Below the pieces are notes generated by a model. The model had not been told where the DNA came from. It did no database searches and was given only the letters and a program-made list of their open reading frames with translations. Shown piece by piece: positions 10,342 to 10,678 of a DNA stretch of 64,000 bases. Origin of the DNA: Escherichia coli 042 (GTDB lineage Bacteria > Pseudomonadota > Gammaproteobacteria > Enterobacterales > Enterobacteriaceae); NCBI RefSeq assembly GCF_000027125.1, contig NC_017626.1, one strand, 5' to 3'. Every line of letters begins with the position of its first letter. Position 1 is the first letter of the stretch. The translations under genes were made by a program, and so were the position numbers.

Positions 10342-10372
10342 CTGCTCCATATCTCTGTGAGATATGGAGCAG
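10342..10372. terminator. perfect 14-bp stem / 3-nt loop hairpin between convergent gene 3 and small ORF; putative bidirectional terminator
   Basis: ctgctccatatctc tgt gagatatggagcag read directly; lies between stop codons at 10329 and 10376; no strong T-tract. Confidence 0.5.
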
Positions 10373-10375
10373 ATA

Positions 10376-10678
10376 TTATCGCCAATGTGCAGGAATAATT
10401 AAGTCAAACGATTTTGCTGCATATTCAAGCATTTTTATTATTTCCCGGTGTCGTTCCTGGTCGAAAGACTGTCCATTTTTTCTACACTCTATAATCCCTT
10501 GTAATTCTTTTAGGTTAAACATATCAAGAAGATATAAATTTTTCCAGGTTGGTTGCCCGAAGAGGTTATAGACTGTTTCCGTAGCATCTCGTTCACTTGC
10601 TAATCTTTTCTCTCCTTCTATTCTTTCAAAAAATATTTCAGCTGTTTCTTTATCATCATAAGTATTTAATAATTCCAT
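10376..10678 (-). CDS. hypothetical small protein (100 aa), convergent to defence operon
   Basis: ORF only; no recognisable motif; AT-rich context. Confidence 0.45.
   Translation of the reverse strand: MELLNTYDDKETAEIFFERIEGEKRLASERDATETVYNLFGQPTWKNLYLLDMFNLKELQGIIECRKNGQSFDQERHREIIKMLEYAAKSFDLIIPAHWR

What the first reader, a model, noticed from the sequence alone, without database searches (positions are those of the whole stretch)
10342..10678. Perfect 14-bp hairpin plus convergent 100-aa orphan ORF at the operon 3' end
The hairpin lies between two convergent stop codons, so it could act as a bidirectional terminator. The small ORF (MELLNTYDDKETAEIFFERIEGEKRL...) has no feature I recognise and sits in very AT-rich DNA. 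It could be an accessory or immunity-type gene of the islet, or a spurious ORF.
Basis: seen in the sequence. Interest (0 to 1): 0.3.

Follow-up and report, generated by a model that had tools for sequence, protein, structure and literature searches.

The report
Small conserved gene flanking restriction-type defence systems
The hairpin is an ordinary shared transcription terminator, but the 100-codon ORF is a real gene from an undescribed protein family that, in dozens of bacterial species, sits end-to-end against DNA-methylation-based anti-phage systems; what it does is still unknown.

Summary
A perfect 14-bp stem (15 bp with one flanking pair; 3-nt loop) lies at 10342-10372, between the stop of a 1126-aa Res-like gene (10329) and the stop of a 100-codon minus-strand ORF (10376-10678). 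The window is E. coli.

The hairpin is stable (-27 kcal/mol, z about -5) and unique in the window. E. coli alleles keep it perfect through a compensatory C:G to T:A change. It is best read as a shared terminator, and it is not a family-wide feature.

The ORF is not spurious:
- dN/dS is 0.07-0.10.
- It has 113 homologue clusters and occurs in 77 species, almost always at 100 aa.
- The AlphaFold model is confident (pLDDT 96.9).
- Pfam, NCBIfam, PADLOC, PHROGs, PDB, viral structures and the literature give no match.

In 62 non-redundant loci:
- 53 are convergent with the next gene (median gap 32 nt).
- 50 have a DNA methyltransferase system just downstream, against 5 upstream.
- The cargo includes the window's SNF2/Mod/Res operon, BREX, DUF499 systems and type II R-M.
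- DNA homology between loci with different cargo stops at the ORF's stop codon.

The gene is optional on a shared island backbone. I infer a system-independent accessory of methylation-based immunity. That function is unproven.

The parts
10341..10373 (.). Perfect inverted repeat (15 bp stem, 3-nt loop) between two convergent stop codons. It is a candidate shared intrinsic terminator.
   Evidence: A compensatory change (10345 C>T with 10369 G>A) and a loop inversion are seen in other E. coli alleles.
10376..10678 (-). 100-codon gene (12.0 kDa, pI 5.0) of an undescribed conserved family. PGAP annotates it as 'hypothetical protein' WP_000421876.1.
10687..10690 (-). Shine-Dalgarno AGGA, 8 nt before the ATG.
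   Evidence: Read from the sequence. An inference.
10709..10743 (-). Promoter-like elements for the small gene: an extended -10 TGaTATAAT (10723-10715), and an overlapping TTTACA-17-TATCGT (10737-10709).
   Evidence: They lie inside the block conserved in strain D8. An inference; no transcription start site was mapped.
6949..10329 (+). Res-like helicase-nuclease (1126 aa). It is the last gene of the convergent defence operon.
   Evidence: Pfam ResIII/DEAD. PADLOC REase_III scores 2317.9 bits.
3827..6946 (+). Type III-like DNA methyltransferase (1039 aa; PGAP starts it at 3842).
   Evidence: Pfam N6_N4_Mtase PF01555. PADLOC MTase_III scores 1623.9 bits. Annotation.
930..3821 (+). SNF2-family helicase (963 aa), DrmD/BrxHII-like. 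It is the first gene of the operon.
   Evidence: The NCBIfam DISARM_DrmD_b score of 664.7 bits is below the 950-bit cutoff.
10994..11413 (-). Remnant (C-terminal 140 aa, the HNH half) of a phosphorothioate-DNA-binding SBD-HNH type IV restriction enzyme, upstream of the small gene on the same strand.
   Evidence: tblastn against the intact 290-aa gene of strain WP8-S18-ESBL-07 shows a deletion of about 424 bp in the window. Annotation.

Best explanation
Shown: the palindrome at 10341-10373 sits exactly between two convergent transcription units, and the ORF at 10376-10678 is a genuine protein-coding gene. Inferred from sequence: the gene is transcribed on its own (extended -10 promoter, AGGA ribosome-binding site) and ends at the hairpin, which also ends the SNF2/Mod/Res operon coming from the other side. 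Shown by comparison: the protein belongs to an undescribed family with a fold that matches nothing known. Its conserved genomic place is stop-to-stop against the last gene of restriction-modification-type (DNA-methyltransferase-based) defence cargo on mobile islands and a few plasmids. It is an optional module at the proximal edge of the variable region, not a subunit of any one system. Inferred, with the lowest certainty: it encodes a trans-acting, system-independent accessory that acts on something these systems share. That could be the balance between restriction and modification of host DNA, for example tempering self-restriction when the island enters a new host or after DNA damage, or a property of PF01555-class methyltransferases or their product. 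My sub-confidences are: real gene 0.95; hairpin works as a terminator 0.75; positional coupling to methyltransferase-based cargo 0.9; functional accessory of such systems 0.35-0.4.
For: Real gene: dN/dS is 0.07-0.10 between E. coli alleles, and family-wide pN is 0.33 against pS 0.81. There are 113 homologue clusters, nearly all exactly 100 aa, with 10 invariant residues in a 54-sequence alignment. There are 77 loci in 77 species genomes. The AF2 model has pLDDT 96.9. Terminator: plus a compensatory pair change and loop inversion that keep the stem perfect. Coupling: in 62 non-redundant loci, 53 are convergent with a median gap of 32 nt. A methyltransferase lies within 7 genes downstream in 50 loci but upstream in only 5 (binomial p 7e-11). 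The cargo classes are SNF2/Mod/Res 13, BREX type 3-like 10, DUF499-type 8 (+2 upstream), BREX type 1 6, small PF01555 MTase pairs including BglII and XcyI type II R-M, and other Res/UvrD plus PF01555 variants. Annotated plasmids agree: XcyI/Pac25I R-M on pYKAM101 and a BglII fragment on pYTSY4-VIM. Homology between loci with different cargo ends within 1-6 nt of the gene's stop. Optional module: the same Pseudomonas backbone (RadC about 90% identical) occurs with the gene next to a double-PF01555 methyltransferase. It also occurs without the gene next to EcoRII/C5-MTase, McrBC plus Eco57I/Dam MTases, or Mrr plus type I R-M. Homology between islands with and without the gene ends just after RadC. 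In E. coli the gene accompanies the operon in essentially every genome, and at a second chromosomal site in strain D8.
Against: No experiment and no homology bears on function. The family tree follows host taxon, not cargo type: identity is 0.739 vs 0.730 within a genus and 0.604 vs 0.585 between genera for same vs different cargo. So there is no sign of co-evolution with any partner protein. The gene is rare: 77 of about 100,000 species carry it, whereas BREX and related systems are reported in 8,475 taxa (PMC12839542). These systems therefore work without it. The backbone carries restriction-type cargo even when the gene is absent, so part of the association may come from the island family. 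The control without the gene covers only three cargo types. My gene calls in the survey come from a simple longest-ORF method. The plus-strand T-tract after the hairpin is weak, and the terminator scan flagged only the minus strand.
Confidence: 0.5

Rival explanations
1. The gene is a passive landmark of an island family. It serves the mobile element (maintenance, excision control or similar) and merely borders a cargo hotspot. The enrichment for R-M-type cargo reflects what these islands carry, not what the gene does.
For: The family tree follows host clade, not cargo. In several pairs, homology runs from the upstream backbone through the gene and stops at its stop codon (L029/L037 over 1008 nt; L054/L056 over 4.6 kb). 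In 19 of 62 loci an integrase or a DUF932-YqaJ-Gp3-RadC backbone lies just upstream. The same backbone carries restriction-type cargo without the gene.
Against: The gene is optional on that backbone, and homology between islands with and without it ends after RadC, which places the gene in the variable region. It occurs with at least four unrelated upstream contexts (Int-AlpA, RadC backbone, SBD-HNH, MobQ plasmid), and 43 of 62 loci have no recognisable backbone, while the downstream class stays constant. In some pairs only the ORF itself is conserved and both flanks differ. Cargo in the controls without the gene uses other methyltransferase classes.
Confidence: 0.3
2. The gene is a stand-alone defence-related effector or sensor. 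For example, it could be a small toxin-like backup, or a detector of phage anti-restriction proteins that is co-located with R-M-type systems.
For: It is always inside defence islands. Auxiliary and backup effectors commonly flank BREX and related loci (PMC12839542). Several conserved polar residues (K24, R25, S28, E29, R30, D31, H77, E79, H98) could form an active or binding site.
Against: It has no conserved partner gene. It matches no PADLOC, Pfam or PDB toxin or effector. A 100-aa single protein with a sensor-plus-effector role has no support here.
Confidence: 0.1
3. The gene is an anti-restriction or anti-defence protein that the mobile element uses to evade the recipient cell's own R-M systems.
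For: It is a small, mildly acidic protein (pI 5.0) on mobile elements. In some islands it lies near RadC, DUF932 and CbeA-like genes, which are typical of leading-region-like modules.
Against: It is absent from 50,697 phage records and found on only 7 of 72,556 plasmids. It shows no sequence or fold similarity to ArdA, ArdB/KlcA or Ocr-type proteins. Its strict placement at the 3' end of R-M-type cargo is not expected for such a role.
Confidence: 0.05
4. The ORF is spurious and the hairpin is a chance palindrome.
For: It lies in AT-rich DNA, where long ORFs arise easily.
Against: See for the ORF, and for the hairpin.
Confidence: 0.01

Closest known systems
Intrinsic (Rho-independent) bidirectional terminators between convergent bacterial genes
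   Same: A stable stem-loop in the short gap between two convergent stop codons. It has an A-rich 5' flank and a T-rich 3' flank on the minus strand, and is kept intact by compensatory change.
   Different: The plus-strand tail (TATTATCG) is only moderately T-rich. The stem is unusually long and perfect, and only 7 of its 15 pairs are G:C. It is specific to the E. coli locus: only 7 of 46 family loci have a perfect stem of 8 bp or more.
Controller (C) proteins of type II restriction-modification systems
   Same: A small protein (about 80-100 aa) encoded beside R-M genes on mobile DNA. C proteins time restriction relative to methylation on entry into a new host (general knowledge).
   Different: No helix-turn-helix domain or fold. 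The gene lies at the 3' end and is convergent, not upstream and co-directional. It is not tied to one system type.
Restriction-alleviation proteins Ral (phage lambda) and Lar (Rac prophage)
   Same: Small proteins carried by mobile elements that modulate the restriction/modification balance without being part of the enzyme (recalled from memory; a functional analogy only).
   Different: No sequence relationship was detected. Ral and Lar act on type I systems, which are not among this gene's neighbours. This gene is absent from phages.
Defence hotspots bounded by conserved genes (P2/P4 hotspots, PMC9122126; Pseudomonas core defence hotspots, PMC10250203)
   Same: A conserved flanking gene with variable defence cargo swapped beside it, and a sharp homology break at the gene boundary.
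   Different: Cargo here is restricted to methyltransferase-based systems, not the broad mix of system types. The gene is itself optional on its backbone. The upstream context is not conserved either.
Small stand-alone components of BREX and BREX-related systems (BrxA, BrxB, DUF3780; PMC12839542)
   Same: Small genes of unclear function that are consistently encoded with methyltransferase/ATPase/helicase defence cores.
   Different: No homology (PADLOC and Pfam negative). It lies outside the operon on the opposite strand. It is shared across BREX, DUF499, type II and type III-like systems, and is present in only a small minority of them.

Membership tests
Intrinsic bidirectional terminator | Stable stem-loop in the RNA of both strands | tested here: met
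   -27.4 and -26.5 kcal/mol, z -5.07 and -5.55, 0 of 200 shuffles as stable
Intrinsic bidirectional terminator | U-rich tract directly 3' of the stem on each strand | tested here: inconclusive
   The minus strand passes the scan (tail ATCATATTTA). The plus-strand tail TATTATCG was not flagged.
Intrinsic bidirectional terminator | Transcripts actually end there | not testable with these tools
   Needs Term-seq or 3'-RACE in a strain that carries the locus.
R-M controller (C) protein | Helix-turn-helix DNA-binding domain | tested here: not met
   No HTH family for any of the 54 members, even at E<=10. The model is beta-alpha-beta-beta plus three helices.
R-M controller (C) protein | Upstream of and co-directional with the restriction gene | tested here: not met
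   Convergent with the neighbour in 53 of 62 loci.
Anti-restriction proteins (ArdA, ArdB/KlcA, Ocr) | Sequence or fold homology to a known family | tested here: not met
Anti-restriction proteins (ArdA, ArdB/KlcA, Ocr) | Carried by phages or conjugative-plasmid leading regions | tested here: not met
   0 of 50,697 phage records and 7 of 72,556 plasmid records.
Type II toxin-antitoxin pair | A conserved adjacent partner gene | tested here: not met
   Upstream neighbours fall in unrelated clusters, and no cluster recurs at position -1 beyond integrase or RadC.
BREX / BREX-related core or accessory component | Match to a known BREX-family profile | tested here: not met
   0 PADLOC families. The gene is not mentioned in the BREX survey PMC12839542.
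Type III restriction-modification (neighbouring operon) | Mod methyltransferase (PF01555) plus a Res helicase-nuclease | tested here: met
   PADLOC MTase_III 1623.9 bits and REase_III 2317.9 bits. Pfam N6_N4_Mtase and ResIII. The extra SNF2 gene is atypical for type III.
DISARM (neighbouring operon) | DrmD equivalog plus DrmA, DrmB (DUF1998) and DrmC | tested here: not met
   The NCBIfam DrmD_b score of 664.7 is below the 950 cutoff. The operon has no DUF1998 or PLD gene.

The most novel reading that the evidence does not exclude
The 100-aa protein is a system-independent modulator of methylation-based immunity. It would be a small factor of a new fold that mobile islands place next to whichever PF01555-methyltransferase or BREX-type system they carry. 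Its job would be to control self-restriction, either on establishment in a naive host or after DNA damage, by acting on a feature common to these otherwise unrelated machines. That would be a generic 'safety catch' for R-M, BREX and BREX-related systems.
Probability: 0.3. Interest if true: 0.75.

Novelty: new variant of a known kind. Interest (0 to 1): 0.5.

Why it matters
The hairpin is routine. The small gene is a concrete, testable lead. It is strongly conserved, has a confidently predicted fold with no known relative, and appears in no database family or paper I could find. It keeps one specific position, stop-to-stop against at least ten different architectures of methyltransferase-based anti-phage systems, in 77 species. 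If it modulates these systems, it would bear on an open question: how mobile elements safely install restriction-type immunity in an unmethylated host. It would also add a shared accessory to BREX, BREX-related and R-M biology. If it is only a landmark, it is still a useful marker for finding this class of defence cargo and its exact insertion boundary.

Tried and rejected
- Known-family assignment: Pfam, NCBIfam, PADLOC, PHROGs, PDB sequence search with a single sequence and with a profile, and a Pfam scan of all 54 members at E<=10 gave nothing credible.
- Distant relatives: the profile search of 1.84 billion representatives found only 79 hits. The larger hits are B_lectin repeat proteins that share a short hairpin motif, which I rejected as evidence of homology.
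- Hairpin as a family-wide feature: rejected. Only 7 of 46 loci have a perfect stem of 8 bp or more, and many gaps are 0-13 nt.
- Hairpin as a dispersed repeat or a known RNA: rejected.
- A conserved att-like DNA motif after the stop codon: none. The downstream sequence is specific to the cargo.
- Co-phylogeny of the gene with cargo type: not seen.
- The gene as a fixed backbone gene: rejected, because islands with the same RadC backbone lack it.
- Literature: the accession appears in no paper, and the BREX diversity survey does not describe the gene.

Full report
OBSERVATION. The window is E. coli chromosome. The region is 100% identical to strain FORC_031, next to nanS, nanM and nanC. The sequence shows CTGCTCCATATCTC (10342-10355), TGT, GAGATATGGAGCAG (10359-10372). 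That is a perfect 14-bp stem, extended to 15 bp by T10341:A10373. It lies in the 46-nt gap between the TAA of a plus-strand 1126-aa ORF (10327-10329) and the TAA of a minus-strand 100-codon ORF (10376-10678). As RNA it folds at -27.4 kcal/mol (plus) and -26.5 kcal/mol (minus), with z -5.1 and -5.6, and no shuffle folds as well. The arm is unique in the window, and no Rfam family matches. The ORF region is 29% GC.

THE HAIRPIN. The terminator scan flags it on the minus strand (15 pairs, 7 G:C, tail ATCATATTTA). The plus-strand tail (TATTATCG) is weaker and was not flagged. Four E. coli alleles, 92-99% identical, were aligned. Strains D8 and WP8 carry 10345 C>T together with 10369 G>A, a compensatory C:G to T:A change. 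D8 also has its loop inverted (TGT to ACA). The stem is perfect in all four. This fits selection for structure, although template switching within palindromes can produce the same pattern. Across the family the hairpin is not general. Of 46 foldable stop-to-stop intervals, only 7 have a perfect stem of 8 bp or more. The window's is the most extreme (z -6.4). Many gaps are 0-13 nt or overlap. I read it as a shared terminator specific to this locus.

THE ORF IS A REAL GENE. PGAP annotates it as hypothetical protein WP_000421876.1. On the minus strand I can read an AGGA 8 nt before the ATG and an extended -10 element, TGaTATAAT (10723-10715). Both lie inside the block that the divergent D8 allele conserves. 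These two elements are inferences. Between E. coli alleles dN/dS is 0.07-0.10. Family-wide, pN is 0.33 against pS 0.81. A search of 5.8 billion proteins found 113 clusters, nearly all exactly 100 aa, at 50-67% identity in Aeromonas, Vibrio, Shewanella, Pseudoalteromonas, Salmonella, Marinomonas and others. A scan of one genome per species found 77 loci, including many Pseudomonas and one Burkholderiales MAG. The alignment has 10 invariant residues and a core KRLASERD-T--YNLFGQPTW-NFY-LGMFNL.

SURROUNDINGS IN THE WINDOW. The convergent operon has three genes:
- an SNF2 helicase (930-3821), DrmD/BrxHII-like but below the NCBIfam DISARM cutoff;
- a 1039-aa PF01555 methyltransferase (3827-6946);
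- a 1126-aa ResIII helicase-nuclease (6949-10329).
PADLOC scores the last two as a type III MTase and REase at 1624 and 2318 bits. Upstream of the small gene on the same strand, after a 312-bp AT-rich spacer, lies the HNH half of a phosphorothioate-DNA-binding SBD-HNH type IV enzyme (10994-11413). The gene is intact (290 aa) in strain WP8-S18-ESBL-07, and the window has a deletion of about 424 bp.

The Res gene occurs in 190 of 5,426 complete genomes, and the intact Res-3'/hairpin/ORF junction in 183. In strain D8 the whole module (operon, ORF, SBD-HNH pseudogene) sits at a different site, a tRNA-Phe island. In about 180 further genomes an IS66 insertion cuts the ORF at window 10556 and the operon is gone. 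The ORF therefore travels with the operon.

THE GENE IS NOT SPECIFIC TO THAT OPERON. Contexts with precomputed Pfam labels showed it against several different systems:
- DUF499/DUF1156 systems in Aeromonas and Marinomonas;
- BREX with PglZ, SNF2, a PF01555 MTase and BrxC in Vibrio and Shewanella;
- BREX type 1 in Pseudoalteromonas;
- a BglI/SfiI-like type II R-M in Salmonella.

I then analysed 62 non-redundant loci with my own ORF calls, BLAST clustering and Pfam labelling of the clusters. The next gene is convergent in 53 of 62, with a median gap of 32 nt. An iterative profile built from the loci's own PF01555 methyltransferases, plus the PglX cluster, finds a methyltransferase within seven genes downstream in 50 loci. 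It finds one upstream in only 5 (binomial p 7e-11). The cargo classes are:
- SNF2/Mod/Res, as in the window: 13;
- BREX type 3-like: 10;
- DUF499-type: 8, plus 2 upstream;
- BREX type 1: 6;
- small PF01555 MTase pairs: 7 (including BglII-type R-M; an XcyI endonuclease in L089 fell in 'other');
- other Res/UvrD-helicase plus PF01555 variants;
- further BREX-like loci with BrxC or PglZ.
Most exceptions are truncated contigs or degraded copies. Annotated plasmids agree. On pYKAM101 the gene converges on XcyI/Pac25I R-M with a 16-nt gap. On pYTSY4-VIM it abuts a BglII fragment truncated by an integron insertion. It is absent from 50,697 phage records. A 2026 survey shows that BREX type 3 and DUF499 systems share homologous ATPase, PF01555 MTase and SNF2 helicase components, and that auxiliary HNH nucleases often flank them. 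It does not mention this gene (PMC12839542).

WHICH SIDE DOES THE GENE BELONG TO? The family tree follows host clade, not cargo. Pairwise identity is 0.739 vs 0.730 within a genus, and 0.604 vs 0.585 between genera, for same vs different cargo. Near-identical proteins sit beside three different cargo types. Between loci with different cargo, DNA homology ends within 1-6 nt of the gene's stop codon. L029 vs L037 is 92.8% identical over 1008 nt, and L054 vs L056 is homologous over 4.6 kb. In other pairs only the ORF itself is conserved. No shared DNA motif follows the stop, so nothing points to an att-like site.

As a control I followed the Pseudomonas Int-DUF932-YqaJ-Gp3-RadC backbone through its RadC protein. 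Two RadC variants are followed by the gene (verified at 51% identity) and then a double-PF01555 methyltransferase of 1276-1304 aa. Three other variants lack the gene and show no remnant of it. They face EcoRII/Vsr/C5-MTase, McrBC plus Eco57I and Dam-class MTases, or AlpA/YfjJ followed by Mrr and type I R-M. Homology between islands with and without the gene ends just after RadC. So the gene is optional and is the first element of the variable region. In this small control it goes with PF01555/BREX-type cargo and not with C5, type I or type IV cargo.

INTERPRETATION. Four things are shown:
- the gene is real and under purifying selection;
- it has an orphan fold;
- it is positioned strictly and asymmetrically at the 3' edge of methyltransferase-based defence systems of many architectures;
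- it is optional on its backbone.

My preferred inference (about 0.35-0.4) is a trans-acting accessory that is not tied to one system and acts on something these systems share, such as the restriction/modification balance on host DNA or PF01555-type methylation. The main rival (0.3) is that it is an island landmark bordering a cargo hotspot, with no role in defence. Three points weigh against the accessory model. There is no co-evolution with cargo. The gene is rare (77 species, against 8,475 taxa with BREX-type systems). The backbone carries restriction cargo without it. Three points weigh against the landmark model. The gene is optional. Its upstream contexts are diverse. The range of cargo is narrow. 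Toxin-like, anti-restriction and spurious-ORF readings have little or no support.

LIMITS. Gene calls in the survey are longest-ORF approximations. The control without the gene covers only three cargo types. The promoter and the terminator function are inferred. No expression or functional data exist.

Noticed in passing
window 10994-11413 (-): HNH half (C-terminal 140 aa, 84% identical) of a phosphorothioate-DNA-binding SBD-HNH type IV restriction enzyme. The sulphur-binding domain was lost through a deletion of about 424 bp relative to the intact 290-aa gene in strain WP8-S18-ESBL-07. Salmonella loci L016 and L017 also keep an SBD-HNH gene near the family gene.
   Followed up: partly
window 10556 (junction); locus L002 11956-12123: In about 180 complete E. 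coli genomes an IS66 element is inserted inside the small gene at window 10556. This leaves a 55-aa chimeric ORF (WP_000421877.1), and the SNF2/Mod/Res operon is absent.
   Followed up: partly
window 10679-10990: A 312-bp very AT-rich spacer lies between the HNH remnant and the small gene. It is conserved at about 93% in strain WP8 but replaced by a different 128-bp spacer in strain D8. Only its promoter-proximal 80 bp were examined.
   Followed up: partly
family residues 29-45; proteins P0180, P0182, P0187: The conserved hairpin motif ERDxTxxxYNLFGQPTW locally resembles the QxDGNLVxY...QPTW repeat of bulb-type mannose-binding lectins (PF01453). This gave weak multi-repeat hits in the profile search. 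It is probably only a local similarity.
   Followed up: partly
loci L004-L007 (Aeromonas), 9472-10303: The family gene follows a CbeA-antitoxin-like gene directly (185-nt gap), after RadC. In E. coli CP4-type elements a CbtA toxin gene occupies that position (from memory). No similarity to CbtA was detected.
   Followed up: no
loci L103-L112 and L114-L116 (Pseudomonas aeruginosa and relatives), 7781-14498: Here the family gene is followed, co-directionally after about 620 nt, by a 1276-1304-aa protein with two PF01555 methyltransferase domains (some with an N-terminal HTH). Convergent DUF2357/PDDEXK_7 and MTaX1 genes follow. I did not characterise this cargo type.
   Followed up: no
locus L063 (Burkholderiales MAG) vs L093 (Pseudomonas sp.): These share 95.8% nucleotide identity over 3.7 kb spanning the family gene and the Res-like gene. 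That implies either recent transfer between orders or a mis-binned contig.
   Followed up: no
locus L023 ('uncultured Streptococcus sp.' MAG contig, 5.7 kb): This contig carries the E. coli-type module (96% protein identity, same 46-nt gap, 1126-aa Res). It is most likely an Enterobacteriaceae contig mis-binned into a Streptococcus MAG.
   Followed up: no
window 120-524 (+): Short ORFs left of the operon correspond to pseudogene fragments in the FORC_031 annotation ('hypothetical protein' and 'transcriptional regulator', both partial). In that record they are preceded by DUF957/DUF5983 genes and an IS3 element. This looks like the decayed end of a CP4-type island.
   Followed up: no
window 3827 vs 3842: The mechanical ORF list starts the methyltransferase at TTG 3827, only 6 nt after the SNF2 stop. 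PGAP starts it at 3842. The true start was not resolved.
   Followed up: no
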